DNA from: Acidimicrobiia bacterium
GTDB taxonomy: Bacteria; Actinomycetota; Acidimicrobiia; Spongiisociales; ZC4RG35
Direction of reading: 5' to 3'
DNA length: 64,000 nucleotides
NCBI GenBank assembly: GCA_965215185.1
Contig: OZ244034.1
Span: 1,824,001-1,888,000, forward strand
Positions 20,227 through 60,228 of this stretch are shown here, piece after piece (position 1 is the stretch's first letter; each line of letters begins with the position of its first letter). A model generated the notes under the pieces. That model was not told the DNA's origin. It searched no databases and worked only from the letters and a program-made list of their open reading frames with translations. The position numbers and the translations under genes are program-made.

Positions 20227-20372
20227 GGCCTCGATGGCGACCTCTACTGCAAGCCGGCGCAGATTGTCGCCGGTACCGGAGTCCGCCGTGCCCGGTCGGA
20301 CCCATCATGTGTCCCGCTGGCTCCGAGTCCCCTTGGATTGTTTAGGGACTTATATACCTGGGTAGACAAAGG

Positions 20373-20394
20373 TGTCACACCCGTTCGGTATTCT
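20373..20394 (+). promoter_or_regulatory. Putative tnpB promoter TGTCAC-N10-TATTCT (RecA-NDp/PafBC-like spacing), leaderless
   Basis: Same architecture in E2 and in the diverged E3; GTG start 7 nt after the -10 hexamer. Confidence 0.5.
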
Positions 20395-20401
20395 GGTTTG
20401 T

Positions 20402-21772
20402 GTGTATTTGGTGCAGACTTTTAGGTTTCCCGCTAAGTGTTCCCCGTCCGCTCATCGTCGGTTGACCGAGGTGTTTTCCATGTCCGCGGAGTTGTATAAC
20501 GCGGCGTTGGAGTCTTGGAGGGGAACATACGCGTGGTGGAGGGAACGCCATCCCGGAGAGGACGACAAGTTCCCCTCGGAGTTGCGGCGTTCGAAGTACG
20601 ACTTGATGAAAGAGTTCACGGGGGTTCGTTCGGATATTCCCGAGTGGGAGCGGCTGGCCGTCCAGGTGGGAAGGGGCGTTGTGTGTCGTTTCGACCGGAC
20701 GGTGAGTTCCTTCTACAAACGCTGCAAAGAAGGGGGCAAGCCGGGGTTTCCCCGCTTCAAGGCGTCCCGCCGGTGGAGGACCATAGAGATCCCGGACGCG
20801 TCGAGTTCCATGGTGGTTCCCCCCAGCACCTCCAAGAACGGTTCTGCTGTGTGGTGGAGACTCGCAGTGAAAGGCGTTCCGCGTCTTCGTTTCCGAGACA
20901 AAGGCCGTAGGTTGGCCGATGCCCTCGGTGGGGGCGCCCGGGTGGTGGAACTACGCGTGGTGAGAACGCCCCTCCGCACAGAGGTACACGTCGTGGTCCG
21001 CCACCCGGAGAGGAACATATCCAGGGTGGAGCCCGCCAATCCCGTGGGGATAGATGTCGGTTTGACGCACCGTTTGACCCTTTCGGGCGGGCAGGTCGTC
21101 CCCCCGCGGAAAGTGGACGCGTCCCGTGTCAAGAGGGCGCAGAGAAAACTGTCCCGTGCCAAGAAAGGCTCCCGCACCAGGGGCAAGAAAGCCCACGCGC
21201 TGGCCAGACTCCACCGCAGAGAAAAAGAGAAAGCCGTCCAGGCTGACTTCCGTCTCGCCCACCACCTCGTCCGCTCCTACGACGGGATAGCCACCGAGGA
21301 CCTCAACGTGACGGGGATGCTCAAATCGAAAAGGTTCTCCAAGAAAATGTCCGAACAACGATGGTCGTCCCTCGGGAACATCCTGGAATACAAAGCCGAG
21401 AAAGCTGGCATTCCATATGAAAGGGTGAATCCCCGCCACACCACCACAGACTGTTCGGCCTGCGGGCACCGACAGGCAATGCCTCTCCGGCAGAGGGTGT
21501 TTCACTGCGGGTCGTGTGGAATGTGCGTGGGTAGGGACGTCAACGCCGCAATCAACATACGCGCCCGGGCTTTTGGCCCGGCGTGGGTAGGGACGTCAAC
21601 GCCGCAATCAACATACGCGCCCGGGCTTTTGTGGTCGGGAGGGACCATCCCCGACGCGATGCGCGTAACAAACTTCGGCTGTAAGACAGGCACGCCCTCC
21701 GGGGAATGCTCTGCGGGTCGACATCGCAGAACAGTATCACCCACGGCGACATCCGTCTACCCAAGTATATAA
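20402..21772 (+). CDS. tnpB: TnpB-like RNA-guided endonuclease, intact
   Basis: N-terminal 'LYNAALE', 'GFPRFK', RuvC-I 'VGIDVG', RuvC-II 'IATEDL', Zn ribbon CSAC...CGSC, RuvC-III 'RDVNAAINI'; the stop codon lies inside the right TIR. Confidence 0.93.
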   Translation: MYLVQTFRFPAKCSPSAHRRLTEVFSMSAELYNAALESWRGTYAWWRERHPGEDDKFPSELRRSKYDLMKEFTGVRSDIPEWERLAVQVGRGVVCRFDRTVSSFYKRCKEGGKPGFPRFKASRRWRTIEIPDASSSMVVPPSTSKNGSAVWWRLAVKGVPRLRFRDKGRRLADALGGGARVVELRVVRTPLRTEVHVVVRHPERNISRVEPANPVGIDVGLTHRLTLSGGQVVPPRKVDASRVKRAQRKLSRAKKGSRTRGKKAHALARLHRREKEKAVQADFRLAHHLVRSYDGIATEDLNVTGMLKSKRFSKKMSEQRWSSLGNILEYKAEKAGIPYERVNPRHTTTDCSACGHRQAMPLRQRVFHCGSCGMCVGRDVNAAINIRARAFGPAWVGTSTPQSTYAPGLLWSGGTIPDAMRVTNFGCKTGTPSGECSAGRHRRTVSPTATSVYPSI

Positions 21773-21777
21773 GTCCC
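21650..21777 (+). ncRNA. Putative omega-RNA scaffold of E1
   Basis: Conserved blocks GCTGTAAGAC, ACAGT and ARGTATATAAGTCCC shared with E2-E4 and two solo loci; located at the tnpB 3' end. Confidence 0.65.
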
Positions 21778-21827
21778 ATTGTTTAGTCAAACTCTGCCGG
21801 TTGGTTCCATCCCCGTCATCCCAGCGG

Positions 21828-23492
21828 TTAGCGTCGCTCCCTGGTGAACGCGATACGGCTGCTATCCGGCAACCACACCGGCCACCGGGCGATGTACGGG
21901 CTGTCAGTAAGCTGCAACAGGTTTCCGCCATCGGCATCCATGACAAATATCGCCCAGTTGCGATTGGTGTCGTTGCTATTGAAAGCGATTCGCGCACCAT
22001 CTGGAGACCACACCGGCCAGGCGTTGTTCAACCATTCTTCTCGACCGCCGCTCCTGTGGGTAAGACGTCGAACATTGTCACCGTCGGCGTCCATTACAAA
22101 GATCTCCCGTCTGCCATCCCGGCTGTCAGCTGCGTAGACAATCCGGGTTCCATCCGGTGACCACTCCGGTTCCCAGTCTTGGGCGTGGACATTGTCGGTG
22201 AGCTGCCGAACAAGGCCGCTGTCGGCCTCCACCACAAAAACCTCGGCATCTCTACCATCTTTTCCGGGGCTTGTGAAGGCAATATGGTCGCCATGGGGCG
22301 ACCAAGCCAGATCCCTCATGAAGGGGTAGCTTCTGTGGGTGGTCAATTGCTTCTGAGCACTGCCATCCTCATCCACGACATAGAGATACCACTCGTTTCC
22401 CATTCCGCCAGCGAAGGCGATCCGCTCGCCATCAGGTGACCAGACAGGATCTGCGCCCTGGTAGGGGTTATAGGTGATCCGTCGTGCTTTCCCGGTATCC
22501 ACATCCACTACAGAAACCTGGCCCAGATGCGCTGCACTGCTCTTGTCGATGTAGGCAAGGCGACTGCTATCAGGCGACCACACGGGGCCGAAGTCCTCCC
22601 AAACCGGATTTGAGGCAAGAAGCCCACCGATCACCCGGATGTTTTCACCACTGGCGTCCATAACGAACAGCTCATCATGGCGGCTGACAAAAGCGACACG
22701 GGCGCCATCGGGCGACCAGGCCGGGTCCCTTCCTTTCACGAGAATCTGTCGCCCACTTCCGTCGGCGTTCACCACAACAATCTCGGATGAATACTCCAAA
22801 TCGTGAGAAGTGATCCGTCCCGGGGCATCGACGGCCGGGGGTAGCCGGACCAGACCCAATGCGCGGGCGAGGAAAGTTGCCATCTGGCCCCGCGTCACCA
22901 AAGCCTCAGGACAGAACCGAGCGGGATTGACAGCACACCCCTGAGTGATCTTTGCCGCCGCCAAGGCATTGATGTGTGACTGGAAGCGACTGTCCTGCAA
23001 GTCGACAAATCCTACTTCTGCCGCAGGCTCAAGTGAGAAGGCGCGGCTGAGGAAGGCCGCCATGTGTTCCCTGGTCACCGGCTCATCAGGACAAAACCTT
23101 TTCGGCTCCACTGCACACCCTTTGGTCACTTTCAGTTCCGCCAATCGCTCCACGTAAGGCGCCCACCACTCCTCAGCATCCACATCCTCGAACCGAGGGA
23201 GACCCTCGGCAGCCGGCTCCCCGCCTTCCAGCGCCCGGACCAGCCACACTGCCACTACCCATCGCTTGATCTCTTCTTCAGGGCAAATCAGATCCTCTCC
23301 ACACTCCGTGCCGTCCAGAATCCCCTCTGCAGCCAATGCATCAAACGCCGATTCGTAATTCCGCCAATTGTCATCTTCAAACCCTTGTGCCTCCACCGGA
23401 CCTGACATCCCCAGCACCAGCACTAAGACGAGCAAGACCGCTCTTCCTCCCGGACCGAGCAACCACACCCCGATCCCCCCAAATCCCCTCAT
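21828..23492 (-). CDS. SLH-domain protein with TolB-like (PD40) beta-propeller repeats
   Basis: Signal peptide, three SLH-like repeats ('VTRGQMATFLARAL'), repeated 'PxWSPDGxRIAF'. Confidence 0.9.
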   Translation of the reverse strand: MRGFGGIGVWLLGPGGRAVLLVLVLVLGMSGPVEAQGFEDDNWRNYESAFDALAAEGILDGTECGEDLICPEEEIKRWVVAVWLVRALEGGEPAAEGLPRFEDVDAEEWWAPYVERLAELKVTKGCAVEPKRFCPDEPVTREHMAAFLSRAFSLEPAAEVGFVDLQDSRFQSHINALAAAKITQGCAVNPARFCPEALVTRGQMATFLARALGLVRLPPAVDAPGRITSHDLEYSSEIVVVNADGSGRQILVKGRDPAWSPDGARVAFVSRHDELFVMDASGENIRVIGGLLASNPVWEDFGPVWSPDSSRLAYIDKSSAAHLGQVSVVDVDTGKARRITYNPYQGADPVWSPDGERIAFAGGMGNEWYLYVVDEDGSAQKQLTTHRSYPFMRDLAWSPHGDHIAFTSPGKDGRDAEVFVVEADSGLVRQLTDNVHAQDWEPEWSPDGTRIVYAADSRDGRREIFVMDADGDNVRRLTHRSGGREEWLNNAWPVWSPDGARIAFNSNDTNRNWAIFVMDADGGNLLQLTDSPYIARWPVWLPDSSRIAFTRERR

Positions 23493-25288
23493 GATTCGCC
23501 GCCACGAATCATCGGCAACCATCTCGGACTCCAGTCTTCATGTTGGTTGTCGGTGATTTGCGCCACATTTCCATCATCCACCTTCACTACTGCTATCTCC
23601 CAACTCTCCTGACTCCCTGCGCTGTCTTCGCCAGCCGGGATATGCCCGAAAGCGATGTAACCGCTGTCGGGTGACCAAACCGGGTCTGTTACCGCTCGAT
23701 GCTTGTTGTGAGTCAGTCGCCGGACGTCGGCTTCGTCCACAACCACCATGAAGATTTCCCATCCACCCTCCGTTACTGATCTGAAAGCAATCTTGGAGCC
23801 ATCTGGAGACCATGTAAGGCCGTATACGCCAACGCTGGCGTTCGTGAGTCGTCGAAGGTTTCTTCCGATGGCATCGCTTACGAATAGGTCACCCAGGCCG
23901 CCGGGCTCATACTGGGTGAAGGCGATTTGAGAACCGTCAGGAGACCAAACAGGGTATAGACCCCCACGGGCGTTCGTGAGTCGCTGCAGATCACCGCCGA
24001 ACTTATCCACCACGAACGCCCCATCCCGCAAGACGCTCGAACCGTTTCTGAGCTCCTCGCTTGTGCCATTAAAGGCGATCCGAGAACCGTCGGGAGACCA
24101 CATGAAATGCGGTTGGTCGCTGGCATTTTGAGTTGCTTGCCAGAACTGGGCGCTGCTTACATCTACAACGAATACCTGCCACCCGTGGTCCGCATAGTCG
24201 TTGAAGGCAATGTGGGAACCATCAGGAGACCACAGCAAAGTGTGCGGGTCGTGGTAGGGGGTTGCAAGAAGTTGCCGCAGATTGCTCCCATCCTTGTCCA
24301 CCACATACAAGAACCCACTGCCGTGGTGGGCGCTAGCAAAAGCGATTTGAGAACCGTCAGAAGACCACTCTGGATCCTGGATCCAGAGATTCTCCACAAT
24401 TTGTCTCCGGTTCTTGCCATCCGAATCTATTACGAAGAGCCCATAGCCATCGTTTCCGACGTAGGCGATCTGAGAACCGTCAGAAGACCAATCAGGATCC
24501 CTGCTGGACGTGATGGAGGTGAGCTGGCGCAGATTCCGACCATCGGCATCCACTAAAAGAACCTTGAACCCACCGTAGTAGCTGCCGCTGTAACTGCTGA
24601 AGGCCAGCCGCGGGACGGACCTGCTGACTCTCTGTGGCAGGGAGACGAGATTGAGAGCACGGGCGACAAATGCAGACATCTGCCCTCGGGTCATCAAAGC
24701 CTCAGGGCAGAATCGAGGCGGGTCAACATCGCACCCCAAGGTAATTCCCACAGCCGCAAGGGCATCAATGCTCTCTTCGTGGGTACTGCCCGCGGTGTCA
24801 ACGAACCCTGCCGTACCCGCTCTCCCGAGGAAAAACGCTCGGGTCAGAAACGTCGCCATCTGGGCGCGGGTCACTGACTGTTCAGGACAGAACCTGGCAG
24901 GTTCCACCGCACACCCTTTCGTCACCCCCAACTCGGCCAGCCGCTCCACAAAAGGCATCCACCACACTCCCGCATCGATATCCACGAACCGGGTGGAAAA
25001 CACCCCCTCAGGATCGGAGCCGTCCAACACCCGGACCAGCCATACCGCCATCACCCACCGCTCCATTACTTCATCGGGACACATCAAACCCTCCCCACAC
25101 TCCGTTCCGTCCAGAATGCCTCTCTCGGCCAAAGCATCCAGAGCCGACTCGTAAAACCCTCCATCATCATCGGTGAAAGAATCAGCGCTGACCGGACCCA
25201 ACACTCCCAATACCAACCCCAACGCGACAAGCATCGTCCAAAAACCGCTTCCCCGGAACCACTTCCCCCTTCTCACATTGCCATCCAT
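23489..25288 (-). CDS. SLH-domain protein with TolB-like (PD40) repeats, tandem paralog
   Basis: AGGAG RBS; SLH repeats 'VTRAQMATFLTRAF'; repeated 'WSPDGSQIAF'. Confidence 0.9.
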   Translation of the reverse strand: MDGNVRRGKWFRGSGFWTMLVALGLVLGVLGPVSADSFTDDDGGFYESALDALAERGILDGTECGEGLMCPDEVMERWVMAVWLVRVLDGSDPEGVFSTRFVDIDAGVWWMPFVERLAELGVTKGCAVEPARFCPEQSVTRAQMATFLTRAFFLGRAGTAGFVDTAGSTHEESIDALAAVGITLGCDVDPPRFCPEALMTRGQMSAFVARALNLVSLPQRVSRSVPRLAFSSYSGSYYGGFKVLLVDADGRNLRQLTSITSSRDPDWSSDGSQIAYVGNDGYGLFVIDSDGKNRRQIVENLWIQDPEWSSDGSQIAFASAHHGSGFLYVVDKDGSNLRQLLATPYHDPHTLLWSPDGSHIAFNDYADHGWQVFVVDVSSAQFWQATQNASDQPHFMWSPDGSRIAFNGTSEELRNGSSVLRDGAFVVDKFGGDLQRLTNARGGLYPVWSPDGSQIAFTQYEPGGLGDLFVSDAIGRNLRRLTNASVGVYGLTWSPDGSKIAFRSVTEGGWEIFMVVVDEADVRRLTHNKHRAVTDPVWSPDSGYIAFGHIPAGEDSAGSQESWEIAVVKVDDGNVAQITDNQHEDWSPRWLPMIRGGES

Positions 25289-27806: not shown

Positions 27807-27860
27807 GGCATCGGGGGCGATGTTGGGCCTCCGCATCCCTTAAGTGAAGAGGTCGTCCAG

Positions 27861-37562: not shown

Positions 37563-37653
37563 GCTCATCCAGAGCGGTGGAGGGATCAGGCCCCGCGAAA
37601 CCGCGGCAACCAGTCGGCACAGCCGACACGGTGCCAACGCCTGACCGATGGGT
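37563..37653 (+). ncRNA. SAM riboswitch (SAM-I clan, P4 apparently absent)
   Basis: CTCATCCAGAGCGGTGGAGGGA...GGCCC...GAAACC..GGCAACC...GGTGCCAA..CCTG..GATGGG; P1 CTCATC/GATGGG; upstream of metX. Confidence 0.9.
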
Positions 37654-37660
37654 AAAGGAG

Positions 37661-38912
37661 GGGACTTATATACCTGGGTAGACAAAGGTGTCACACCCGT
37701 TCGGTATTCTGGTTTGTGTGTATTTGGTGCAGACTTTTAGGTTTCCCGCTAAGTGTTCCCCGTCCGCTCATCGTCGGTTGACCGAGGTGTTTTCCATGTC
37801 CGCGGAGTTGTATAACGCGGCGTTGGAGTCTTGGAGGGGAACATACGCGTGGTGGAAGGAACGCCACCCCGGAGAGGACGACAAGTTCCCCTCGGAGTTG
37901 CGGCGTTCGAAGTACGACTTGATGAAAGAGTTCACGGGGGTTCGTTCGGATATTCCCGAGTGGGAGCGGCTGGCCGTCCAGGTGGGAAGGGGCGTTGTGT
38001 GTCGTTTCGACCGGACGGTGAGTTCCTTCTACAAACGCTGCAAAGAAGGGGGCAAGCCGGGGTTTCCCCGCTTCGTTTCCGAGACAAAGGCCGTAGGTTG
38101 GCCGATGCCCTCGGTGGGGGCGCCCGGGTGGTGGAACTACGCGTGGTGAGAACGCCCCTCCGCACAGAGGTACACGTCGTGGTCCGCCACCCGGAGAGGA
38201 ACATATCCAGGGTGGAGCCCGCCAATCCCGTGGGGATAGATGTCGGTTTGACGCACCGTTTGACCCTTTCGGGCGGGCAGGTCGTCCCCCCGCGGAAAGT
38301 GGACGCGTCCCGTGTCAAGAGGGCGCAGAGAAAACTGTCCCGTGCCAAGAAAGGCTCCCGCACCAGGGGCAAGAAAGCCCACGCGCTGGCCAGACTCCAC
38401 CGCAGAGAAAAAGAGAAAGCCGTCCAGGCTGACTTCCGTCTCGCCCACCACCTCGTCCGCTCCTACGACGGGATAGCCACCGAGGACCTCAACGTGACGG
38501 GGATGCTCAAATCGAAAAGGTTCTCCAAGAAAATGTCCGAACAACGATGGTCGTCCCTCGGGAACATCCTGGAATACAAAGCCGAGAAAGCTGGCATTCC
38601 ATATGAAAGGGTGAATCCCCGCCACACCACCACAGACTGTTCGGCCTGCGGGCACCGACAGGCAATGCCTCTCCGGCAGAGGGTGTTTCACTGCGGGTCG
38701 TGTGGAATGTGCGTGGGTAGGGACGTCAACGCCGCAATCAACATACGCGCCCGGGCTTTTGGCCCGGGGTCGGGAGGGACCATCCCCGACGCGATGCGCG
38801 TAACAAACTTCGGCTGTAAGACAGGCACGCCCTCCGGGGAATGCTCTGCGGGTCGACATCGCAGAACAGTATCACCCACGGCGACATCCGTCTACCCAAG
38901 TATATAAATCCC
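37661..38912 (+). mobile_element. E2: near-identical copy of E1 with an internal deletion (1252 bp)
   Basis: Same TIRs (right TIR ...TATATAAATCCC); 8-bp TSD TAAAGGAG at 37653-37660 and 38913-38920. Confidence 0.95.
37718..38907 (+). pseudogene. tnpB: tnpB with a 130-bp frameshifting deletion
   Basis: Lacks E1 positions 20759-20888; joined at a CTTC microhomology. Confidence 0.88.
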
Positions 38913-38925
38913 TAAAGGAGAGTCG

Positions 38926-41159: not shown

Positions 41160-41290
41160 GGGACTTATATACCTGCGCGCCCAATTTGGGCGCCGCGGGC
41201 GCCACTGTTTCACCGGGTCCGCCAAATGCTTTTGGCCGGAGTCGACTGGCGTCTTACAGCAGATATTCGTGGACTGACCACCGTCTATTT
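41160..41290 (-). ncRNA. S1: stand-alone omega-RNA-like scaffold plus TIR, no tnpB
   Basis: Minus strand: TCTGCTGTAAGAC (41251-41263), ACAGT (41204-41208), hairpin GCGCCCA/TGGGCGC, AGGTATATAAGTCCC end at 41160. Confidence 0.7.
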
Positions 41291-41391
41291 CGAAGTCACC
41301 ATGTTGTTTCAACAGCCGGCGGCGAGGTGGGGCCCGCCAGCCTTATGCATCGTCGGCTCGACCCTCCGATCGCGACGATATCCTTTGGCGG

Positions 41392-45079: not shown

Positions 45080-46728
45080 CCACTGGTGAGGGGGCGGCGA
45101 CGATCCCGTCCCAGATTCTTGGTGGTGACTTTGGGACCGGGCGCGGATTGGTGTCTCTTGTATTCGGCTCGCTCCACCAATCCCACCACCCTTCGCACCA
45201 TCACCGGATCGTAACCCGACGCCGTGATCTCGTCCACCGAAAGCTCCGAATCTATGTACATGCCCAACACGGAATCCAAATCATCATAGGGAGGCAAGGA
45301 GTCGCTATCAAGCTGGTTGGGACGTAATTCCGCAGAGGGAGGCTTGGTGATAATCCCTTGCGGAATCACCGGATGGCGGCGGTTCCTCCACTGTGCCAGA
45401 CGGTACACCCAGGTCTTGTAAACGTCTTTGAGAGGAGCAAACCCTCCCACCATATCGCCATACAGGGTGGAGTAACCGACCGCCAGTTCCGACTTGTTGC
45501 CCGTGGCCAGCACCAAACCGCCGTGCTGGTTGGAGACGGCCATCAAAAAGGCACCCCGGGCGCGGGCTTGCAGGTTTTCTCCGACGATTCCCCAACCGGC
45601 GGCGCCCATCACCGGCGACAGGCTGTCCATGAAAGCACTGTGCACACGTTCGATGGGGACCATGTCGAAACGGATACCCAGATTGGAAGCCAACCGCTTG
45701 GCGTCGGTCTTGGAGTGCTCGGAGCTGTACACCGACGGCATGGAAATCCCCCAAACCCGATCCGCTCCCAAGGCGTCGGCGGCCAGACAGGCGGTTACCG
45801 CCGAATCGATCCCTCCCGAGAGGCCCACCACCGCCGAGTTGAACCCGTTCTTGCGCACGTAGTCGCCGGTGGCCAGAGTCAACGCCTCCCACACCTCCTC
45901 TTCGGATCCCATCCAGTCTCTTTCCGGGGGCGGTGGCGAGGTGGACGCCCCGGGGAGGGGAATGTCCACAATGAAACGGTCCTCGCCGAACTGGGGCGAT
46001 CGATGCAGGATCGAGCCGTCGGAGGAGGCGACCAGCGAAGCGCCGTCGAACACCAACTCGTCCTGGCCTCCCACCAGGTTCAGATAAACCAGAGCGGTTC
46101 CCGCACTCCGGGCGCGCTGGGACACCAAGGCTTCACGCTCCGAAGCCTTCCCCCGGTGATAGGGAGAGGCGTTGAGATTTACGATCACCCCGGCTCCCGC
46201 CGCGGCTAACTGTTGCCAGGGGCCGTCTTCGGTCCACAGGTCCTCACATATGGAGACTCCCACCTCGACCTGCCCGACCGGCCAGGTGCGAAGAGGGTCA
46301 CGTCCGGGATAGAACCACCGACGCTCGTCGAAAACACCGTAGTTGGGCAGAACCCGCTTGCGATAGACACCCTGAATGCGGCCTGCTCGCAAGATCGCCG
46401 CGGCGTTGGCCACCCGCCCGGAGAAGGCGTCGCCTGCACCGGGCAGGTCTTTTTGGGGAGAGGAGTCCAGGAAGCCCACCACCGTCACCGTTCGACGGGA
46501 CCGCTCGGCCAGCCTCTCCACTACGGCTCGATTGGCCTCCAGGAAGTCGCCGCGCAACGCCAAGTCCTCGGGCGGGTATCCGCAGACCGCCAACTCGGGA
46601 AACACCAGAAGATCGACATTTTGATCCTCCGCCCAGTCCATCGCGTCCAGGATTCGGCGGCAGTTGCCCTCCAAGTCCCCCACCACCATGTTGAGTTGGG
46701 CGCCGGCGATCCGAATCGTCATCCCCAT
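45064..46728 (-). CDS. nadE: Glutamine-dependent NAD+ synthetase
   Basis: CN-hydrolase domain ('FPEL', 'ICED') plus 'GLSGGIDS', 'TGNKSE', 'PSAEL'. Confidence 0.95.
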   Translation of the reverse strand: MGMTIRIAGAQLNMVVGDLEGNCRRILDAMDWAEDQNVDLLVFPELAVCGYPPEDLALRGDFLEANRAVVERLAERSRRTVTVVGFLDSSPQKDLPGAGDAFSGRVANAAAILRAGRIQGVYRKRVLPNYGVFDERRWFYPGRDPLRTWPVGQVEVGVSICEDLWTEDGPWQQLAAAGAGVIVNLNASPYHRGKASEREALVSQRARSAGTALVYLNLVGGQDELVFDGASLVASSDGSILHRSPQFGEDRFIVDIPLPGASTSPPPPERDWMGSEEEVWEALTLATGDYVRKNGFNSAVVGLSGGIDSAVTACLAADALGADRVWGISMPSVYSSEHSKTDAKRLASNLGIRFDMVPIERVHSAFMDSLSPVMGAAGWGIVGENLQARARGAFLMAVSNQHGGLVLATGNKSELAVGYSTLYGDMVGGFAPLKDVYKTWVYRLAQWRNRRHPVIPQGIITKPPSAELRPNQLDSDSLPPYDDLDSVLGMYIDSELSVDEITASGYDPVMVRRVVGLVERAEYKRHQSAPGPKVTTKNLGRDRRRPLTSGWNRL

Positions 46729-46744
46729 AAGAATACGGAATAAT

Positions 46745-46858
46745 CACCGCGTTCGGACAGAAGATCTTCTGCTGTGAAACCCGACCCTCCCAGGGAGGGC
46801 AACGCTGGCGGAAACAGTATCCCTTTAGCCCCGTTGGGCACTCAGGTTTATAAGTCCC
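46745..46858 (+). ncRNA. S2: stand-alone omega-RNA-like scaffold plus TIR, no tnpB
   Basis: TCTGCTGTGAAAC (46768-46780), AACAGTATC (46813-46821), hairpin GCCC/GGGC, CTCAGGTTTATAAGTCCC end at 46858. Confidence 0.68.
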
Positions 46859-52116: not shown

Positions 52117-53529
52117 GGGACTTATATACCTGAGTACCCGAGGGTGCTCTGATACTGTATCTGTGTCGTCTGCCTGCCGTTTCGCCCCGAAGAGCTCGCC
52201 GGTCTTACAGCAGAGGTTTGTATAGCGCGACACATCGGCTGACAGTCCCGGCCGATCCCGAGGTTCCCGGTGGGGAAAGCCTCGGGCGCATATGTTTCTT
52301 GCGGCGGTGTGGTCTCTGCACATGATGAGACCGCACCCTCCGCACTCGTACACTCGCACAGACAGAGGCATGCTCTGTCTGTGACCGCAGCACGAGCAGT
52401 CCGTGGAGGTGTGTGACGGGTTTACTCTCACATACGGGACACCAGTTTTCCAGGCTTTGTGTGCCAGTATCTGACAGAGAGTCTCCCATCTTTGTTCGGA
52501 CATCTTCTTGGAGAACCTCTTGGATCTGAGCATTCCCCCCACGTTCAAGCCCTCCACCGCCATGCCGTCGTGGGCGCTCACCAACTGGTGGGCTAGGCGG
52601 AAGTCGGCCTGTCGGGCTCGTTCCTTTTCTCTGCGCCACACCTTGGCGTGAGCCGCCACCTTCTTGCGGCGTGAGAGGGAACCTTTCTTCGATCTGCTGA
52701 TCTGGCGCTGGGTTCTCCTTATAGCGGAGCGATCCACCACTGGAGCGGGGATGCTCCGCCCGTTCGAGGTGGGAAGGCGGATGTGCAGTCCCAGGTCTAT
52801 ACCCACCGGATGTTGCGGCTCCTTCTCGGCCATGGGGCGGTGCGGGTGTCTCAGCACCACCTGCACCTCGGTTCTCAGAGGAGTGCGCACCACTCGCAGT
52901 TCCACCACCATGGCGCCGAGACCGAGCGCGGTAGCGAGTCGGTTGCTCCGGTCGGAGAACCGCAACCGAGGTACACCCTTCACCTGCAATCTCCACCATC
53001 GTTCCGATTGGTTGTTGCCGGTACCGGGCGCACAGACCATGGATGGGGTCGGATCGGGTATCTCTATGGAACGCCAACGGTGCGAAGGCTTGAAGCGCGG
53101 ATACCCCCGGGCCTTCCTCCTTCTTTGCACCTGCGATAGAAGGCGGCTCTGGCCCTGTCAAAACGGCGGATGACCCCTCTGCCTACCTTGACGGACAGCC
53201 GGTTCCACTCCGCAAGATCCTCGCGGACCCCGGTGAACTGCTTTATCAAGTCCTACTTGGATTGGTTCAGTTCGGAAGGGAACGTCTCCGTTTCCAGATT
53301 ATGGTGTTCCTTCCACCATGAGTATGCGCCTTTCCACGACTCCAGGCAGGCGTTGTACATCTCGGCGCACATTCCGAAAATCTCCGTGAGCCTGCGGTGC
53401 TGGGAGGGTGAACACTTGGCGGGCAGGTGCATGGCCTGAAACCAAACATCCATAGGGTGTCAGCGTACCCAGAGGGTGTGACACTCTTTGCGCGTTAGGA
53501 GCCCGTGGGCAATCAGGTATACAAGTCCC
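52117..53529 (-). mobile_element. E3: diverged TIR-bounded tnpB element (1413 bp), no TSD
   Basis: TIRs GGGACTTATATACCTGAGTACCC (52117) and GGGCAATCAGGTATACAAGTCCC (ending 53529). Confidence 0.9.
52122..53453 (-). pseudogene. tnpB: tnpB with a nonsense codon (53253) and a frameshift (~53110)
   Basis: 'MYNACLESWKG', 'GYPRFK', 'VGIDLG', 'MAVEGL', 'CRDHTAARNI' spread over three ORFs. Confidence 0.88.
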
Positions 53530-55571: not shown

Positions 55572-55586
55572 TGCCTTTACCAGGGA

Positions 55587-55704
55587 GCCGATCGGAGCGA
55601 ACAATTCGTAATCAACATTTCCTCTATAAGTCTGCCAATCGGAGCGAACAATTCGTAATCAACATTTCCTCTATAAGTCTGCCAATCGGAGCGAACGATT
55701 CGTA
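55587..55704. repeat. 47-bp tandem repeat, ~2.5 copies
   Basis: ATCGGAGCGAACAATTCGTAATCAACATTTCCTCTATAAGTCTGCCA units starting at 55591, 55638 and 55685. Confidence 0.95.
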
Positions 55705-55719
55705 GTATTGTCCCGTCCC

Positions 55720-56496
55720 ATGTCGGAGACTGTTCAACTATTCGTCACTTGCGTTATCGACGCCATCTTTCCGCAAGTCGGCCGCGACGTTGTTGAGGAG
55801 TTGGAAAGAAATGGTGTAACCGTTGAATTTCCCGAGGACCAGACCTGCTGCGGCCAGCCGGCCTACAACGCCGGGCATCTTCGGGAGGCATCCGAGGTGC
55901 TGGTCCACAATCTGGAGGTTCTGGACCGCACCGAAGGGCCCATAGTGATTCCCTCCGGATCCTGCACCGACTTCATCATGCATCACGGCCCGCGGGTGGC
56001 CGCCGATATTCCGGGCAGGGCCGACATTGCCAAGCGGGTGGCGGCTCGCATCCGCGAGTTCACGTCTTATCTTGTCGAAAAGCGGCGAGAAATCGCCAGC
56101 GAGGGGACCGCAGACGAAAGCGGGGACAACGGAGAGCGGCGGCGGGCCTACTACCACCCTTCCTGCCACGCTCTGCGCGGCCTGGGTCTGCGCCGAGAGG
56201 GGGAAATGCTGTTGGAATCGGTGAAGGGGGTGGAACGGGTTGAACTCGAGGGTGCCGAGGAATGCTGTGGATTCGGTGGCCTGTTCGCATTGGAGATGCC
56301 CGAAATCTCCGCCAAGATCATGAACACCAAGCTGGATCGACTGGAGAACGGGGAAGTGCAGATGCTGGTGGGCGCCGACGTGGCCTGCCTCATGCACATG
56401 GAAGGGGGCCTTCGTCGCCGCAAGAACCCCATGCAGGTGCTGCACATCGCCTCGGCGCTGGCCGGTGGCCGGGCCGTTGATGGAGAATACCAATGA
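55720..56496 (+). CDS. lutA: Lactate utilization protein A (CCG domains)
   Basis: 'QTCCGQPAYNAG', 'SGSC', 'ECCGFGG'. Confidence 0.9.
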   Translation: MSETVQLFVTCVIDAIFPQVGRDVVEELERNGVTVEFPEDQTCCGQPAYNAGHLREASEVLVHNLEVLDRTEGPIVIPSGSCTDFIMHHGPRVAADIPGRADIAKRVAARIREFTSYLVEKRREIASEGTADESGDNGERRRAYYHPSCHALRGLGLRREGEMLLESVKGVERVELEGAEECCGFGGLFALEMPEISAKIMNTKLDRLENGEVQMLVGADVACLMHMEGGLRRRKNPMQVLHIASALAGGRAVDGEYQ

Positions 56497-57896
56497 GCCA
56501 GCCGGTTACCTTCCGCCGTCGCGCCATTGAAGAGATGGCCACTTCCAAACCCGCGGCGGTGGACCGGGCAGCGCGCCGGTTTACCGACAAACGCCAATGG
56601 GCGGTGAACGATTTCGCAGCCATGGAGGAAACCCGCGACCGGGGCCGGGAGATCCGCCTTCACACCCTGGCCAACCTGCACCGCTACCTCGACCAATTCG
56701 CCGACTCGGTGGAACGCGCCGGAGGGCAGGTGCTGTGGGCCGCCGACGCGGCTGAGGCCAACCAGCAGATCGCCGAGTTGATAGCCAGGAAAAAGGGTTC
56801 GCTGGTGATCAAATCCAAATCGATGGTCACCGAAGAACTCGGACTCCTCCACCATCTGGAAAACGAGGGCCACACCGTGGTGGAGACCGATCTGGGAGAG
56901 TTCATCGTCCAGATCGCCAAGGACCATCCGTCCCACATCATCGCGCCGGTCATGCACCTCACCCGCCAGGACATCGGCGCCCTTTTCCAACAGGAACTGG
57001 GATTTCCCTATTCGGAGGACCCGGCTGATCTAACCCAGATGGCCCGCCGGCACCTACGACGATTTTTCCTCTCCGCCGATGTGGGGATCTCGGGAGTGAA
57101 CATGGGAGTGGCCGAGACCGGATCGATAATCACCATCACCAACGAGGGCAACGGCTGGCTGACCACCGCCGCGCCCCGGTTGCACATCGCGGTGATGGGC
57201 ATGGAGCGCCTGGTTCCCACTATGAATGACGCGGCCACCATCGTGGAGATACTGGCTCGGTCGGCCACGGGTCAACGGCTGAGCGTCTACACCAATGTGG
57301 TGACCGGCCCGAGAAGACCGGGCGACCCGGACGGGCCGGACGAGATGGCGGTGGTGATCGTGGACAACGGGCGCAGCCTCGTGTTGGAAAGCGACGCCTC
57401 CGAGATCCTGGCCTGCATCCGGTGCGGCGCCTGCCTGAACGTCTGCCCTGTGTTCCGGGAGGTGGGGGGTCACGCCTACGGACAGGTGTATCCCGGTCCG
57501 GTGGGGGCGGTGCTGGCGCCCGGGCTGGCCGACTTCAAGGATCATTTGGACCTGCCCTATGCCTCCAGCCTGTGCGGAGCGTGCCGGGAGGTATGCCCGG
57601 TGCGTATCGACATCCCCAAGCTCCTGGTCAACCAACGCGTTCGAGCCACCAAGGAAAACGATCCGTTCCGGTGGATGGGCCCGGGACTGGCCGTTTACCG
57701 CCAAGCCGGCAAGCGCCCGCTGCTGTGGAAATCGTTGCTGGCCGCCGGGCGAATGGCCGGGCGGGTAAAGAAAGAAGGCGAGTGGTTCCACCGCCTGCCC
57801 TTCCAAAGCAAAGGGTGGACCGACAGCCGCGACTTTCCCCCACCGGCGAAACAGTCCTTCCGGCAATGGTGGAAAGAAAGCCGCGATGGAACGTAG
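56493..57896 (+). CDS. lutB: Lactate utilization protein B (Fe-S)
   Basis: 'KSKSMVTEE', 'ETDLGE', 'NEGN', 'CIRCGACLNVCP'. Confidence 0.93.
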   Translation: MSQPVTFRRRAIEEMATSKPAAVDRAARRFTDKRQWAVNDFAAMEETRDRGREIRLHTLANLHRYLDQFADSVERAGGQVLWAADAAEANQQIAELIARKKGSLVIKSKSMVTEELGLLHHLENEGHTVVETDLGEFIVQIAKDHPSHIIAPVMHLTRQDIGALFQQELGFPYSEDPADLTQMARRHLRRFFLSADVGISGVNMGVAETGSIITITNEGNGWLTTAAPRLHIAVMGMERLVPTMNDAATIVEILARSATGQRLSVYTNVVTGPRRPGDPDGPDEMAVVIVDNGRSLVLESDASEILACIRCGACLNVCPVFREVGGHAYGQVYPGPVGAVLAPGLADFKDHLDLPYASSLCGACREVCPVRIDIPKLLVNQRVRATKENDPFRWMGPGLAVYRQAGKRPLLWKSLLAAGRMAGRVKKEGEWFHRLPFQSKGWTDSRDFPPPAKQSFRQWWKESRDGT

Positions 57897-58539
57897 CCAG
57901 TTCCTGAAGCGGATCGAACAGGCCCTCGGCTCCGATTCCCTGCCCGGGCTTCCCGCCCGCCATCCCGACCACCACCTCCCCCACCTGGAAGAGGTGGACC
58001 TGACCACTCATTTCATAGCCGCCTTCGAGCTGCTGGACGGGATAGTCCATCACGGATCGCCTCTGGACGTGATCACCCGGATCATGGAAGACCGCGGAAC
58101 CCGGGAGTACCTGGCCTGGGACCAGGAGCACCTTCCCAGCGAGGGCCTGTTAGACGCTCTGGGACAGAAGGGATACCGGCGGAAGGGAACCGTCCTGCCA
58201 TCCGACCCCGATGGTCGTATCCCCCACCAGATGGGCTACATGGACGCCGAGGTTGGGATCTCCGCGGCGATGGCCGCCCTGGCCGAGTCCGGCTCGGTGG
58301 TGGTGACTTCGGGACCCGGGCGTTCTCGTTTGGCCTCGGTGATCCCCGCCGTTCACATAGTGCTGGTGCCCACCAGGCTGATCTTTCGCTCGCTATCCCA
58401 TTGGGCGGCGCAGGTTGAATCACCCGATCAGTTGGCGAACATCATGGTCATAACCGGACCCAGCCGCACCGGCGACATCGAACTCACCCTCACCAAAGCA
58501 GTGCACGGACCCGGCGACATCCACGCCGTTCTGCTGTAG
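57886..58539 (+). CDS. lutC: Lactate utilization protein C (LUD domain)
   Basis: 'ALAESGS', 'ITGPSRTGDIE...VHGP'. Confidence 0.9.
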   Translation: MERSQFLKRIEQALGSDSLPGLPARHPDHHLPHLEEVDLTTHFIAAFELLDGIVHHGSPLDVITRIMEDRGTREYLAWDQEHLPSEGLLDALGQKGYRRKGTVLPSDPDGRIPHQMGYMDAEVGISAAMAALAESGSVVVTSGPGRSRLASVIPAVHIVLVPTRLIFRSLSHWAAQVESPDQLANIMVITGPSRTGDIELTLTKAVHGPGDIHAVLL

Positions 58540-58577
58540 GCGCCACCCCGTCCTCCTCAAGCTCCCGGGGTGTTTCA

Positions 58578-58824
58578 TCATGACAGTTGAATAGCTATCG
58601 GCTTTAGGTCTTCACTTGGAATCAAGGAGAGACCCATGAGGTTGATAATGTCTTCCCCGATCCCTTGGACGATCATCTCCCCAGGTTCTATATCTGTAGG
58701 GCCGAATGCGACTTCGCCGCCAAAGTTGACATACGCCCTGCGATAGAGATCGAAGCATTCATAGAGCACCTGATAGAGCTCTTTCGAAAAGCCTTCCTGC
58801 CCCCTGTAGTCGGCGCGACGTAGA
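58578..58824 (-). pseudogene. 5'-truncated hypothetical gene abutting E4
   Basis: Lower-GC frame is open right up to the E4 TIR, with no matching 5' part beyond the element. Confidence 0.45.
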
Positions 58825-60228
58825 GGGACTTATATACCTAGGTTGACAGAGCGTCTAGGTGATACTGTTCTGCGGTGTCTGCCAGCATCTTCCGGCCTGA
58901 GCCGAAAGATGTCTTACAACAGAGATTTGTAGAGCGCACCGCGTCGGGAAACACGAGGTCATGTCCCACCCGACCCCAAGGATCCCAGGTGGGATAGTCT
59001 CGGGCGCATATGTTGATTGCAGCATTGTGGTCTCTGCACATGGTCAGTCCACACTGTTCGCACCGGAAGGTTCTCACGTTGAGGGGCATCTTTTGGTGAT
59101 GCCCGCATCGGGAACAGTCGGTGGAGGTGTGGCGAGGGTTTACCCCCGCATAGTGGACACCAGCTTTCGCGGCTTTGTGTTCCAGTATGAGATCGAAGGA
59201 TCCCCAGCGTTGCTGTGACATCTGTTTGGAGAACAGCTTGGTTTTCAGCAGTCCGGCGATATTGAGCTTTTCGACAGCTATGCCGTCGTAGGCCTTGACC
59301 AGGCGGTCGGCCAGGCGGAAGTCCGACTGGATGGCCTGTTCCTGTAGGCGGCGGTGCTGTTTGGCGAGAGTGTTTGCGCTTCTTGATGCGAGACCGTGAT
59401 CCCTTGACGGACCTGCTGAACCGGCGCTGAGCGCGCAACGCCTGTCGCAGATCCACGGTTGTGGGTGGTAGGTGTTCGCCGTCGGAAGTGACCAGGCGTG
59501 ACTTGAGGCCCTTGTCCAAACCGACGGGATTGACAGGATCTGCCACCGGTGGGCGGTCAGGGTGCTTGATGACCGCGTGTATCTCGACTCGCAGAGGAGT
59601 GCGGGCCACTCGCAGTTCCACCAGCCGGCCGCTCTCCAACGCGGTAGTGAGGCGGTCGTGTTTGTCCTCGAACCGTATCTGCGGCACGCCCTTCACCTGT
59701 AGTCTCCACCACTTCTCGCTGTGGTTCTTTCTCTCTCCCGGAGCTTTGAGCATCGCGCGGTCAGCGTTCACAATCTCTATCGACTTCCACCGGTGACGCG
59801 GCTTGAAACGGGGAAACCCGGCCTTCTTGGAAGGGTCCTTACATCTCTTATAAAAGGCCTGAATAGACCGGTCGAAGCGGCGCAACGTTCCGCGCCCCAC
59901 TCGAAGGCTCAAACGCTGCCACTCAGGATGGTCCTTGCGTACATCGGTGAACATCCGCAGACGGTCATAGTGAGACTGGTTCAGTTCTAGGGGAAGGGGT
60001 TCGTCGGGATGGTGTTCTTTCCACCACCGGTATGTGCCCTTCCATGATTCCAGGCATGCGTTATACAACTCGCAACACTGCGCGAAGATGTCATCCAAAC
60101 GACGGTGCGCCGAGCGGGAACAATGCCCTTTCAGCCGGATCGTCTGCACCCAAGGAACCATCATCTAAAAATATCCCACCCCTGCGAAAAAAGGGGTGGC
60201 TGGTTGTCAACCTAGGTATATAAGTCCC
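58825..60228 (-). mobile_element. E4: diverged TIR-bounded tnpB element (1404 bp), no TSD
   Basis: Perfect 24-bp TIR GGGACTTATATACCTAGGTTGACA at 58825-58848 and 60205-60228. Confidence 0.93.
58838..60164 (-). pseudogene. tnpB: tnpB with a single frameshift (~59375)
   Basis: 'LYNACLESWKG', 'GFPRFK', 'VGLDKG' in one frame; 'IAVEKL', CxxC pairs and 'CRDHNAAINI' in the next. Confidence 0.88.

What the first reader, a model, noticed from the sequence alone, without database searches (positions are those of the whole stretch)
20337..60228. TnpB carried by TIR/TSD-bounded (DDE-type, IS1595-like) non-autonomous elements: candidate new OMEGA transposon family
Seen: four elements (20345-21777, 37661-38912, 52117-53529, 58825-60228) contain only a tnpB-like gene and end in 23-24 bp inverted repeats starting GGGACTT(A/G)TATAC. 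E1 and E2 have exact 8-bp direct repeats (ATTGTTTA; TAAAGGAG). The inner part of the TIR differs between subfamilies but matches between the two ends of each element (E1 ...GGGTAGAC, E3 ...GA.T.CCC, E4 ...AGGTTGACA), so they are maintained as true TIR pairs while the proteins have diverged. Established: TnpB normally sits in IS200/IS605 (HUH Y1 transposase, subterminal hairpins) or IS607 (serine recombinase) elements, which have neither TIRs nor TSDs; TIR plus TSD is the DDE signature, and eukaryotic Fanzors associate with TIR transposons. Inference: tnpB was captured as the sole passenger of a DDE element mobilised in trans. The 8-bp TSD, ~24-bp TIR and GGnnnTTAT start fit the IS1595 family best (IS256 is an alternative). 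No transposase is in this window. This would be a bacterial parallel to Fanzor-TIR associations.
Basis: partly seen in the sequence, partly recalled or inferred. Interest (0 to 1): 0.93.

Follow-up and report, generated by a model that had tools for sequence, protein, structure and literature searches.

The report
TnpB riding IS1595-type inverted-repeat transposons
Four small mobile elements in this window carry only an RNA-guided nuclease gene (tnpB) but have the ends and 8-bp target duplications of IS1595-family DDE transposons, so they are probably moved by a transposase encoded elsewhere; this kind of partnership is already known for other DDE families.

Summary
The motif GGGACTTRTATAC occurs 10 times in the window against 0.05 expected. 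E1-E4 are 1.25-1.43 kb elements with 23-bp TIRs and only tnpB. E1 and E2 have exact 8-bp TSDs.

All five congeneric genomes show a precise empty E2 site with a single TAAAGGAG. Across 18 two-ended tnpB elements from several genomes, 8 have 8/8 TSDs and 3 have 7/8. None of 1040 offset controls reached 7/8.

The IS1595 guess is supported. Full-length IS1595 transposases sit inside homologous TIRs with 8-bp TSDs in L027 and L064, and next to such ends in G454. G104 (L064) and G454 also hold tnpB elements. The window's own genome has only one truncated IS1595 fragment, no Y1 transposase, and one distant resolvase.

TnpB is ISDra2-like with its catalytic motifs present. A covarying ωRNA scaffold overlaps its 3' end. 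The right TIR appears to be built into that RNA through a terminal hairpin and a pseudoknot, with compensatory changes in two TnpB lineages. The guide is therefore probably the TSD plus flank, as in Fanzor. This step is inferred.

The concept is not new. Altae-Tran 2023 described six DDE-associated TnpB branches and solo TnpBs mobilised in trans. No text I could search names IS1595. Verdict: new member of a known kind.

The parts
20345..21777 (+). E1: non-autonomous IS1595-type element carrying tnpB and ωRNA
   Evidence: TIR pair and exact TSD. tnpB Pfam hits. A contig of run X2 joins 20336 to 21778, skipping 1441 nt, which equals the element plus one TSD copy. That joint is weak: 1 contig, side 23.
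20337..20344 (.). E1 left TSD copy, ATTGTTTA
   Evidence: 8/8 with 21778-21785
21778..21785 (.). E1 right TSD copy, ATTGTTTA
20345..20367 (+). E1 left TIR, GGGACTTATATACCTGGGTAGAC
21755..21777 (-). E1 right TIR (22/23 match to the left TIR)
20372..21772 (+). E1 tnpB open frame. The probable true start is the ATG at 20480. The ISDra2-like core ends near 21590. RuvC D lies in GIDVG (from 21047), E in ATEDLN (from 21290) and D in RDVNAAINI (from 21533); CxxC motifs start at 21452 and 21506.
21620..21727 (+). Nested ωRNA scaffold helices, overlapping the 3' end of the tnpB frame
   Evidence: 93.2% of cells paired, 19 of 36 pairs with compensatory change, 0 of 500 shuffles reach the observed value. 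Coordinates.
21641..21645 (+). GGGAC, proposed 5' strand of a pseudoknot with the TIR terminus
21728..21741 (+). Conserved single-stranded tail, AGAACAGTATCACC
21742..21772 (+). Subterminal hairpin: a lineage-specific stretch that is an inverted copy of the inner right TIR, plus the TIR itself
21773..21777 (+). GTCCC, the last 5 nt of the element; proposed 3' strand of the pseudoknot
37661..38912 (+). E2: a copy of E1 (99.3-99.5% identical) with a 118-bp internal deletion. TSD TAAAGGAG at 37653-37660 and 38913-38920.
   Evidence: Empty site in 5 of 5 congeners.
52117..53529 (-). E3: tnpB element of another subfamily. Frame broken, no TSD, lies in a variable region.
58825..60228 (-). E4: tnpB element of a third subfamily (98.0% identical to the genome copy at 1556143-1557546). 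Frameshifted, no TSD. The sequence to its right differs from congener G068.
41160..41300 (-). Solo right-end remnant (TIR plus ωRNA-like sequence) of a tnpB element; the inner limit is approximate
46700..46858 (+). Solo right-end remnant (TIR plus ωRNA-like sequence, ...GGGATACTGT...); the inner limit is approximate

Best explanation
E1-E4 are non-autonomous members of an IS1595-family (ISNwi1-like) transposon lineage. The transposase gene is absent, and the only cargo is an OMEGA module: tnpB plus its ωRNA.

Shown: the mobile unit runs from TIR to TIR, insertion duplicates 8 bp of an AT-rich target, and autonomous elements with homologous TIRs and the same TSD length encode DDE_Tnp_IS1595 transposases.

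Inferred: those transposases move the tnpB elements in trans. The window's genome now holds only a transposase fragment, so its copies are probably stranded.

TnpB looks catalytically competent (D/E/D and zinc-finger motifs), and a covarying ωRNA scaffold overlaps its 3' end.

Inferred, about 60% likely: the right TIR has been absorbed into the ωRNA. The conserved tail and a lineage-specific stretch pair with the TIR as a terminal hairpin. The last 5-6 nt of the TIR form the guide-proximal pseudoknot with GGGAC about 135 nt upstream. The scaffold would then end at the last base of the transposon, and the guide would be read-through into the TSD and flank, as reported for Fanzor1 and Fanzor2*. 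TnpB could then cut unoccupied copies of its own insertion site and drive copying of the element by recombination.
For: TIRs and enrichment.

TSDs: 8/8 in 8 of 18 two-ended tnpB elements and 7/8 in 3 more; 0 of 1040 offset controls reach 7/8.

Empty sites: E2 in 5 of 5 congeners with a single TAAAGGAG. One contig of run X2 bridges E1 by exactly the element plus 8 nt (weak).

IS1595 link:
- L027 928-3395 holds a 328-aa transposase (PF12762 131.9 bits, plus zinc ribbon). Its TIR GGGGCTTATATCCCTAACTTGAC matches the tnpB TIR at 19 of 23 positions by my count. It abuts an element that ends in the exact tnpB-type TIR.
- L064 7123-10046 has perfect 30-bp TIRs, TSD TTACGTTT, and a transposase plus a methylase. 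It lies in the same MAG (G104) as tnpB elements L023, L025 and L030.
- G454 holds 311-aa and 327-aa IS1595 ORFs next to such ends, along with tnpB elements L066 and L079.
- The window's own genome has one truncated IS1595 DDE immediately inside a GGGACCTATATAC end.

No Y1 transposase is found in the genome.

TnpB: Pfam; ISDra2 TnpB at E 3e-23 with catalytic motifs aligned.

ωRNA.

TIR-in-scaffold:
- Pseudoknot paired in 15 of 15 E1-type sequences, with A-U changed to G-C in L066/L079.
- In a second TnpB lineage, GGGACT pairs with AGTCCC (L105) and GGGAAT with ATTCCC (L107).
- The tail-TIR helix appears in 8 of 10 minimum-energy folds. In L066 both strands changed together, z -5.4.

Precedent: Fanzor reRNAs include the TIR and TSD (PMC10711439, passages).
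Against: - No full-length IS1595 transposase was found in the window's genome, nor in G102, which holds many copies. G101, G103 and G105 have only fragments or weak hits. In-trans mobilisation is therefore not demonstrated where the elements are most numerous. Yet E1 and E2 are 99.3-99.5% identical at different sites.
- 7 of 18 tnpB elements lack a TSD.
- RNAalifold alone did not draw the TIR into the scaffold.
- 3 of the 5 pseudoknot pairs never vary. Each compensatory change is a single lineage event, and the L066/L079 one needs a bulged T.
- L104 is a 5/6 exception.
- 8 of 10 terminal folds are no better than shuffles, with z from -0.05 to -1.86.
- An inverted copy of the inner TIR also occurs at the left end and near the transposase start in L064. 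The hairpin may therefore be a DNA-level feature of the transposon end rather than an RNA feature.
- No data show where the RNA ends.
Confidence: 0.8

Rival explanations
1. The transposon is the same, but the ωRNA scaffold ends at the conserved tail ...CAGAACAGTATCACC. The guide is then the fixed internal sequence that follows (the lineage-specific stretch plus the inner TIR), so every copy of a subfamily carries the same guide. On this reading TnpB would target TIR-containing DNA, for example related elements, rather than the flank.
For: The nested covarying scaffold ends just before this tail, and RNAalifold leaves the rest unpaired. The distance from the tail to the element end varies from 28 to 39 nt, which is unusual for a scaffold segment next to the guide. 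In L066 and L079 the stretch is so short that a 16-20 nt guide would be almost pure TIR.
Against: The supposed guide is self-complementary with the TIR in all lineages and covaries with it. That fits a structure better than a guide. I saw no second site for it; the left ends do not contain the lineage-specific stretch (by eye; no genome-wide search of the stretch was run). The terminal 5-6 nt of the TIR have a complementary partner at -106 to -137 in three TnpB lineages, with two compensatory changes.
Confidence: 0.15
2. The tnpB units are ordinary IS200/IS605-type (IS1341-like) or IS607-type elements, moved by a Y1 or serine transposase. They merely happen to sit inside inverted repeats.
For: TnpB is ISDra2-like. 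The ends contain hairpin-forming sequences. One resolvase gene exists in the genome.
Against: The empty site of E2 shows that the whole TIR-to-TIR unit inserted with an 8-bp duplication. TSD sequences differ between copies and there is no conserved 4-5 nt target at the left end. No Y1_Tnp match in the genome. The resolvase at 2415447 is about 35 kb from the nearest element. The same TIRs also bound non-tnpB cargo and IS1595 transposases.
Confidence: 0.02
3. The elements are mobilised by a DDE transposase of another family that also makes 8-9 bp TSDs, for example IS256. Fragments of IS256 are present in this genome.
For: 10 IS256-type (PF00872) matches in the genome, against a single IS1595 fragment. 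IS256 makes 8-9 bp TSDs (recalled).
Against: None of the IS256 matches was examined next to these TIRs. Three independent IS1595 transposase genes, plus one fragment, sit directly inside homologous TIRs with 8-bp TSDs.
Confidence: 0.03

Closest known systems
DDE-transposase-associated TnpB branches (DDE-1 to DDE-6; IS630, ISL2, IS1031) of Altae-Tran et al. 2023, PNAS (PMC10691335; passages read; summarised in PMC13565253)
   Same: Prokaryotic TnpB sits inside transposons with inverted terminal repeats. The tnpB 3' end lies within 250 bp of the transposon end. Solo TnpBs are bounded by the same ends as transposase-bearing copies and are inferred to move in trans.
   Different: The partner here is an IS1595-family (ISXO2-like DDE plus zinc ribbon) transposase. 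No text I could search names it together with TnpB (0 occurrences of IS1595 in the PNAS main text; supplements closed). I found no element carrying both the transposase and tnpB. Whether these TnpBs fall in one of the published DDE branches was not tested.
Fanzor1 / Fanzor2* in eukaryotic and viral TIR/TSD transposons (PMC10711439, passages; Bao & Jurka 2013, PMC3627910, search listing only)
   Same: A non-autonomous TIR/TSD element encodes only the TnpB-family nuclease. The TIR is predicted to be part of the guide-RNA scaffold.
   Different: These elements are bacterial, with a compact ISDra2-like TnpB. The TSD is 8 bp of variable sequence rather than TA or TTAA. For Fanzor the RNA end was mapped; here it is only inferred.
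IS1341-group (tnpB-only) elements of the IS200/IS605 family
   Same: About 1.3-1.5 kb elements whose only gene is tnpB with a 3' ωRNA, present in several copies.
   Different: IS200/IS605 elements have no TIRs, make no TSDs, and insert next to a fixed 4-5 nt motif (review passage). These have 23-bp TIRs and 8-bp TSDs.
IS1595 family, ISNwi1/ISNwi1+ subgroup (ends 'ggnnatTAT', 8-bp DR, passenger genes). Recalled from ISfinder and the 'Everyman's guide to IS'; not checked by any search (one search found no searchable paper).
   Same: TIRs begin GGGnnTTAT, the TSD is 8 bp, and the transposase has a zinc ribbon. Passenger genes are frequent: a methylase in L064, secreted-protein ORFs in L027, and a Wadjet-like cassette in the 8.3-kb element.
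   Different: The tnpB elements lack the transposase. I am not aware of a TnpB/ωRNA passenger having been described for this family.

Membership tests
IS1595 family (non-autonomous derivative) | Terminal inverted repeats of about 20-30 bp shared with transposase-bearing members | tested here: met
   23-bp TIRs. The outer 13-16 nt are near-identical to the TIRs of L064 (GGGAATTATATACCTA...) and homologous to those of L027.
IS1595 family (non-autonomous derivative) | 8-bp target site duplication | tested here: met
   8/8 in 8 of 18 tnpB elements and 7/8 in 3 more. Also 8/8 in L064, the L027 composite, L030, L107, L108 and the 3.5-kb and 8.3-kb elements. Empty sites in 5 of 5 congeners.
IS1595 family (non-autonomous derivative) | DDE_Tnp_IS1595 (ISXO2-like) transposase with N-terminal zinc ribbon encoded between such TIRs | tested here: met
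   Met for autonomous relatives: L027 (131.9 bits plus zinc ribbon), L064 and G454. E1-E4 themselves encode none, which is why I call them non-autonomous.
IS1595 family (non-autonomous derivative) | Mobilisation by that transposase | not testable with these tools
   Needs a transposition assay. The window's genome has only a truncated copy.
IS200/IS605 (IS1341 group) | No TIRs, no TSD, insertion 3' of a fixed tetra- or pentanucleotide | tested here: not met
IS200/IS605 (IS1341 group) | Y1 (HUH) TnpA available in the genome | tested here: not met
   0 matches to PF01797; the control rings in 6 of 14 reference genomes.
IS607 | Serine recombinase TnpA adjacent to tnpB; no TIR and no TSD | tested here: not met
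   A single resolvase match at 2415447, not next to any element. TIRs and TSDs are present.
OMEGA system (TnpB plus ωRNA) | TnpB with RuvC D-E-D and zinc finger | tested here: met
   Pfam. Alignment to ISDra2 TnpB 8H1J/8BF8, with the motifs GIDVG, ATEDLN, RDVNAAINI and two CxxC. Among the window copies only E1 is uninterrupted.
OMEGA system (TnpB plus ωRNA) | Structured RNA overlapping the 3' end of tnpB | tested here: met
   93.2% of cells paired, 19 of 36 pairs compensatory, 0 of 500 shuffles, slid controls 34-48%. No Rfam family matches.
OMEGA system (TnpB plus ωRNA) | Guide adjacent to the scaffold and derived from DNA beyond the transposon end | tested here: inconclusive
   Covariation of the pseudoknot and hairpin favours a scaffold that ends at the TIR terminus. 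No RNA-end data exist.
OMEGA system (TnpB plus ωRNA) | RNA-guided, TAM-dependent DNA cleavage | not testable with these tools
   Needs biochemistry or an interference assay.
Published DDE-associated TnpB branches (Altae-Tran 2023) | Phylogenetic placement in DDE-1 to DDE-6 | not tested
   Tree and sequence lists are in supplements that were closed. No phylogeny was built.

The most novel reading that the evidence does not exclude
One IS1595-type TIR family has recruited at least three very different TnpB lineages: E1-type, L031-type (26-31% identical to E1) and the 627-aa L030-type. In each, the ωRNA has adapted so that the last nucleotides of the DDE transposon's right TIR serve as the guide-proximal pseudoknot strand. 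The guide is then the 8-bp TSD plus flank. This would give a bacterial DDE transposon an RNA-guided homing or gene-drive function against empty alleles. It would be a convergent bacterial counterpart of Fanzor1, spread across at least five phyla of co-occurring bacteria.
Probability: 0.35. Interest if true: 0.75.

Novelty: new member of a known kind. Interest (0 to 1): 0.5.

Why it matters
A 2026 review of OMEGA systems (PMC13565253, passages) calls DDE-plus-OMEGA transposons rare in prokaryotes. It leaves open what a guide-RNA nuclease does for a cut-and-paste element and how the guide copes with a TSD.

This lineage is a clean natural case for testing that:
- The boundaries are proven by empty sites.
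- Several diverged subfamilies exist, with intact tnpB in some copies.
- A second and a third TnpB lineage sit in the same TIR family.
- Candidate autonomous transposases are in hand.
- There is a specific, testable RNA model in which the TIR terminus pairs as a pseudoknot.

It also shows an exact 23-bp TIR shared by MAGs titled Acidimicrobiia, Rhodobacteraceae, Gammaproteobacteria, Tepidiformaceae and Thermodesulfobacteriota, which points to recent inter-phylum spread.

It does not change the general picture, which was already published in 2023.

Tried and rejected
Expression evidence. One RNA-labelled run (X1) gave a single 631-nt contig, about 92% alike, that covers 21237-21777 and runs on 111 nt beyond the right TIR. 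The tool warns that contigs cannot show RNA ends and that DNA can be present in such a library, so I draw nothing from it. Runs X2-X4 are of unknown kind.

More right ends. The metagenome scan with GCAGAACAGTA...RGTATATAAG returned 17 loci. Only 3 were real (L087, L091, L101), all of the L023 lineage; the other 14 were chance matches. It added no new covariation.

TAM reading. G stands just 5' of the left TSD copy in 17 of 19 elements, which looked like a TAM. However, C at +10 in 13 of 19 and an AT-rich TSD start make it roughly two-sided. L064 and the L027 composite also show the G when read in transposase orientation (2 of 4 non-tnpB elements checked). I therefore read it as a transposase target preference.

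Empty sites for E1, E3 and E4 in congeners:
- E1: the flanks are not conserved.
- E3: it lies in a variable stretch next to a repeated roughly 80-nt motif.
- E4: G068's left flank ends exactly at the E4 boundary, but about 690 nt of unrelated sequence follow. This fits an adjacent deletion or replacement but proves nothing.

3.5-kb element ORFs (640, 170 and 253 aa): no significant Pfam hit.

Rfam: no match.

Family-level motif search: the exact 13-mer was found in 2 of 101 genomes, counting the window's own. Most of these are MAGs, where repeats assemble poorly.

Literature:
- 'TnpB'+'IS1595': 9 papers, none on point by title or abstract.
- 'TnpB'+'ISXO2': 0.
- 'ISNwi1'+'passenger': 0.
- 'TnpB'+'IS630'+'IS1031': only the review.

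No phylogeny, structure prediction or complex prediction was run.

Full report
**1. The observation**

The 13-mer GGGACTTRTATAC (up to 1 mismatch) occurs 10 times in the window. The expectation is 0.05, and 0 of 100 shuffles reach 10.

Reading the ends confirms 22-24 bp inverted repeats. The outer 13 nt are shared by all elements. The inner roughly 10 nt differ between subfamilies but match between the two ends of each element.

E1 (20345-21777) is flanked by ATTGTTTA on both sides and E2 (37661-38912) by TAAAGGAG. E3 and E4 have no duplication (0/8 and 4/8).

Each element holds one TnpB-like frame. For E1, Pfam gives OrfB_IS605 at 54 bits and Cas12f1-like_TNB at 78 bits. tblastn against the genome is. 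Only E1 is uninterrupted. E2 is a 99.3-99.5% identical copy of E1 with a 118-bp internal deletion. E3 and E4 align in two frames.

It encloses 5.7 kb of housekeeping-type ORFs, and both ends are right-end remnants.

**2. Are the TIRs the boundaries of a mobile unit that duplicates 8 bp?**

Yes. With E2 plus 1 kb of flank as query, all five congeneric genomes (G022, G049, G068, G086, G100) align to the left flank up to the base before the element and to the right flank from the base after it. The two alignments overlap by exactly 8 nt in the subject. The sequences show one TAAAGGAG where the window has TAAAGGAG-E2-TAAAGGAG.

For E1, one contig of run X2 joins 20336 to 21778, skipping 1441 nt, which equals the 1433-nt element plus 8. 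This is weak evidence: a single contig, 23 nt on the shorter side, laid at 90% likeness, and absent from X3 and X4.

Genome-wide and in other genomes I collected 18 tnpB elements with both ends. Eight have 8/8 identical flanks, three have 7/8, and seven have 5/8 or fewer. None of 1040 offset-control comparisons reaches 7/8.

E3 and E4 lie in regions that differ between congeners. At E4, G068's left flank stops exactly at the element boundary and is followed by about 690 nt that the window lacks. This fits an adjacent deletion but does not prove one.

**3. Which transposase family?**

The window's genome has no Y1 transposase. It has one resolvase, far from any element, and IS256 fragments elsewhere. 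There is a single IS1595-type DDE match. That match is a truncated frame beginning immediately inside a TIR-like end, GGGACCTATATACGATCC... at genome position 2083010.

A scan of one genome per species for the exact 23-bp TIR gave 23 loci. The MAGs are titled Acidimicrobiia (several), Rhodobacteraceae, Gammaproteobacteria, Candidatus Foliamicus, Tepidiformaceae, Thermodesulfobacteriota and 'bacterium OM1'. Three sets of loci link the TIR to IS1595:

- **L027.** This locus holds a 2468-bp element (928-3395) with a 328-aa transposase (PF12762 131.9 bits, plus the IS1595 zinc ribbon). Its TIRs are GGGGATTATAACCCTAACTTGAC and GGGGCTTATATCCCTAACTTGAC. It is separated by 8 bp from a 604-bp element that ends in the exact tnpB-type TIR. 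The composite is flanked by CTCCGTTT.
- **G104.** This MAG also carries tnpB elements L023, L025 and L030. Its locus L064 7123-10046 is a complete 2924-bp element with perfect 30-bp TIRs (GGGAATTATATACCTAAGTGGCG...) and TSD TTACGTTT. It encodes an IS1595 transposase (363 bits, 53% identical to L027) and a DNA methylase.
- **G454.** This genome is in the same order as the window's genome and holds tnpB elements L066 and L079. It has 311-aa and 327-aa IS1595 ORFs directly inside such ends.

So two genomes hold both partners. G000 and G101 hold clear transposase fragments, G103 and G105 only weak ones, and G102, which has many tnpB copies, holds none. That is the usual fate of non-autonomous elements. 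It also means in-trans mobilisation is inferred, not shown.

The TIR start GGGnnTTAT and the 8-bp TSD fit what I recall of the ISNwi1 subgroup in ISfinder. I could not check that.

**4. The cargo**

TnpB is a conventional ISDra2-like protein (E 3e-23 to 8H1J/8BF8). RuvC D (GIDVG), E (ATEDLN), D (RDVNAAINI) and two CxxC pairs are present.

The last roughly 160 nt of the elements fold into a conserved nested scaffold:

| Measure | Value |
|---|---|
| Sequences from distinct lineages | 15 |
| Cells forming a standard pair | 93.2% |
| Pairs with compensatory change | 19 of 36 |
| Shuffles reaching the observed value | 0 of 500 |
| Slid controls, cells paired | 34-48% |

No Rfam family matches.

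Close relatives of this TnpB are rare. 8 of 401 genomes of the class match at E ≤ 1e-20, counting the window's own. Every match above 55% identity that I examined carries the TIRs, and the next best is 36%.

The same TIR family also carries two other TnpB types:

- A lineage 26-31% identical to E1: L105; L104 (TSD 7/8); L107 (TSD AAGTATAA, 8/8).
- A 627-aa TnpB-like protein: L030 (TSD TTGCTTTA).

Whether these are separate captures or an old divergence was not resolved.

**5. Where is the guide?**

After the nested scaffold comes an almost invariant tail, AGAACAGTATCACC. Then comes a 4-16 nt lineage-specific stretch, then the TIR.

That stretch is an inverted copy of the inner TIR in every lineage. 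Examples are GGTTGAC-AAACCC-GTCAACC in L023 and GGTCGAC-TCC-GTCTACC in L021 and L036.

In 8 of 10 minimum-energy folds the tail also pairs with the ...AGGUAUAU of the TIR. In L066 both strands changed together (GUACGCC with GGCGUAU; z -5.4). L023 has z -4.5, but the other eight are not better than shuffles.

The last 5 nt of the element (GTCCC) are complementary to an invariant GGGAC about 135 nt upstream, which lies in a hairpin loop. The evidence for this pseudoknot is:

- All 15 E1-type sequences pair. The two whose TIR ends GCCCC have GGG(T)GC instead of GGGAC.
- In the second TnpB lineage, the homologous site reads GGGACT where the TIR ends AGTCCC (L105).
- It reads GGGAAT where the TIR ends ATTCCC (L107).
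- L104 is a 5/6 exception.
- L030 has GGGAC at -112.

This matches the geometry of the TnpB pseudoknot (-130/-3 in ISXfa1). It also matches the finding that Fanzor reRNAs incorporate the TIR and TSD (PMC10711439, passages).

I therefore favour, at about 60%, a scaffold that ends at the last base of the transposon, with a guide read from the TSD and flank. The rival is an internal fixed guide.

There are caveats. An inverted copy of the inner TIR also occurs at the left end (TGTCACACCC) and upstream of the transposase in L064, so part of this may be a DNA-level end feature. No RNA ends are known.

**6. Comparison with what is known**

IS200/IS605 and IS607 have neither TIRs nor TSDs (review passage). 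Membership of either fails here.

The general architecture is published. Altae-Tran et al. 2023 report six DDE-associated TnpB branches, all with inverted terminal repeats. [quoted passage not shown] The 2026 review names ISL2, IS630 and IS1031.

IS1595 does not occur in the PNAS main text or in any paper found with TnpB+IS1595 or TnpB+ISXO2. The supplements were closed.

Hence my classification: a new member (IS1595 partner) of a known kind, of moderate interest. Its value is as a well-delimited system for testing how OMEGA works with a DDE transposon.

**7. Verdict**

The novelty is reduced. The main explanation has confidence 0.8. The RNA model is inferred, at about 0.6.

Noticed in passing
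window 41160-41300 and 46700-46858: Two right-end remnants (TIR plus ωRNA-like sequence) face each other across 5.7 kb of housekeeping-type ORFs (greA-, mgtE- and nadE-like by eye). Their outward flanks are inverted copies of each other (CAAAGTTA|TIR ... TIR|TATCTTTG), not direct repeats. This suggests an old inverted duplication of one end plus its flank.
   Followed up: partly
window 21582-21632 (inside E1): Contigs of runs X2-X4 at the main depth skip these 51 nt. The window's E1 therefore carries an extra segment partly duplicating the RuvC-III / ωRNA 5' region. The frame stays open, but the first ωRNA stem is disturbed in this copy.
   Followed up: partly
genome G000:C1:952908-956420 (L001 1001-4513): A 3.5-kb element with the same TIRs and TSD ACAGAAAA. 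It keeps an E4-like ωRNA region at one end but has no tnpB. It carries three ORFs (640, 170 and 253 aa) with no significant Pfam hit.
   Followed up: partly
genome G000:C1:2074718-2083010 (L013): An 8.3-kb unit with related TIRs and TSD TTATTAAA. It holds the truncated IS1595 transposase and a DUF2397/DUF2398/SbcC-like/DUF2399+DUF3323 cassette. From memory this is the domain set of a Wadjet-type anti-plasmid system.
   Followed up: partly
flanks of 19 tnpB(-like) elements: Target-site preference. G stands immediately 5' of the TSD on the tnpB-upstream side in 17 of 19. The TSD starts W-W-A. C stands two bases after the TSD on the other side in 13 of 19.
   Followed up: yes
E1 20371-20381; L064 near the transposase start; L014, L015, G6, E3 left ends: The motif TGTCACACCC lies upstream of tnpB at a variable distance from the left TIR, and also upstream of the IS1595 transposase ATG in L064. 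It is an imperfect inverted copy of the inner TIR GGGTNGACA. It may be a shared regulatory or transposase-binding site, and it hints that tnpB replaced the transposase gene.
   Followed up: partly
L027 316-3395: Two elements of the family lie head to tail, separated by exactly 8 bp (CTCTCGTT). The pair is flanked by a TSD (CTCCGTTT), so it appears to have moved as a composite.
   Followed up: partly
genome G000:C1:1958646-1958667: A 22-bp near-palindrome, GGGACTTATATACCTAAGTCCC: two TIR heads abutting with nothing between them.
   Followed up: no
L109 501-780; L110 273-532 (Rhodobacteraceae MAG G467): 260-280 bp MITE-like pairs of the GGGAATTATATAC TIR. G467 has 18 TIR hits, and locus L110 (which also holds one of these MITEs) has a full-length IS1595 transposase.
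   Followed up: no
L014-L036: The exact 23-bp TIR is shared by MAGs titled as five or more different phyla or classes. This implies recent horizontal spread of the element family among co-occurring bacteria.
   Followed up: partly
L064 7312-8670; L026 1841-3076: DNA methyltransferase genes appear as passengers next to these TIRs in two unrelated MAGs (by motif DPPF/DPPY, read by eye).
   Followed up: no
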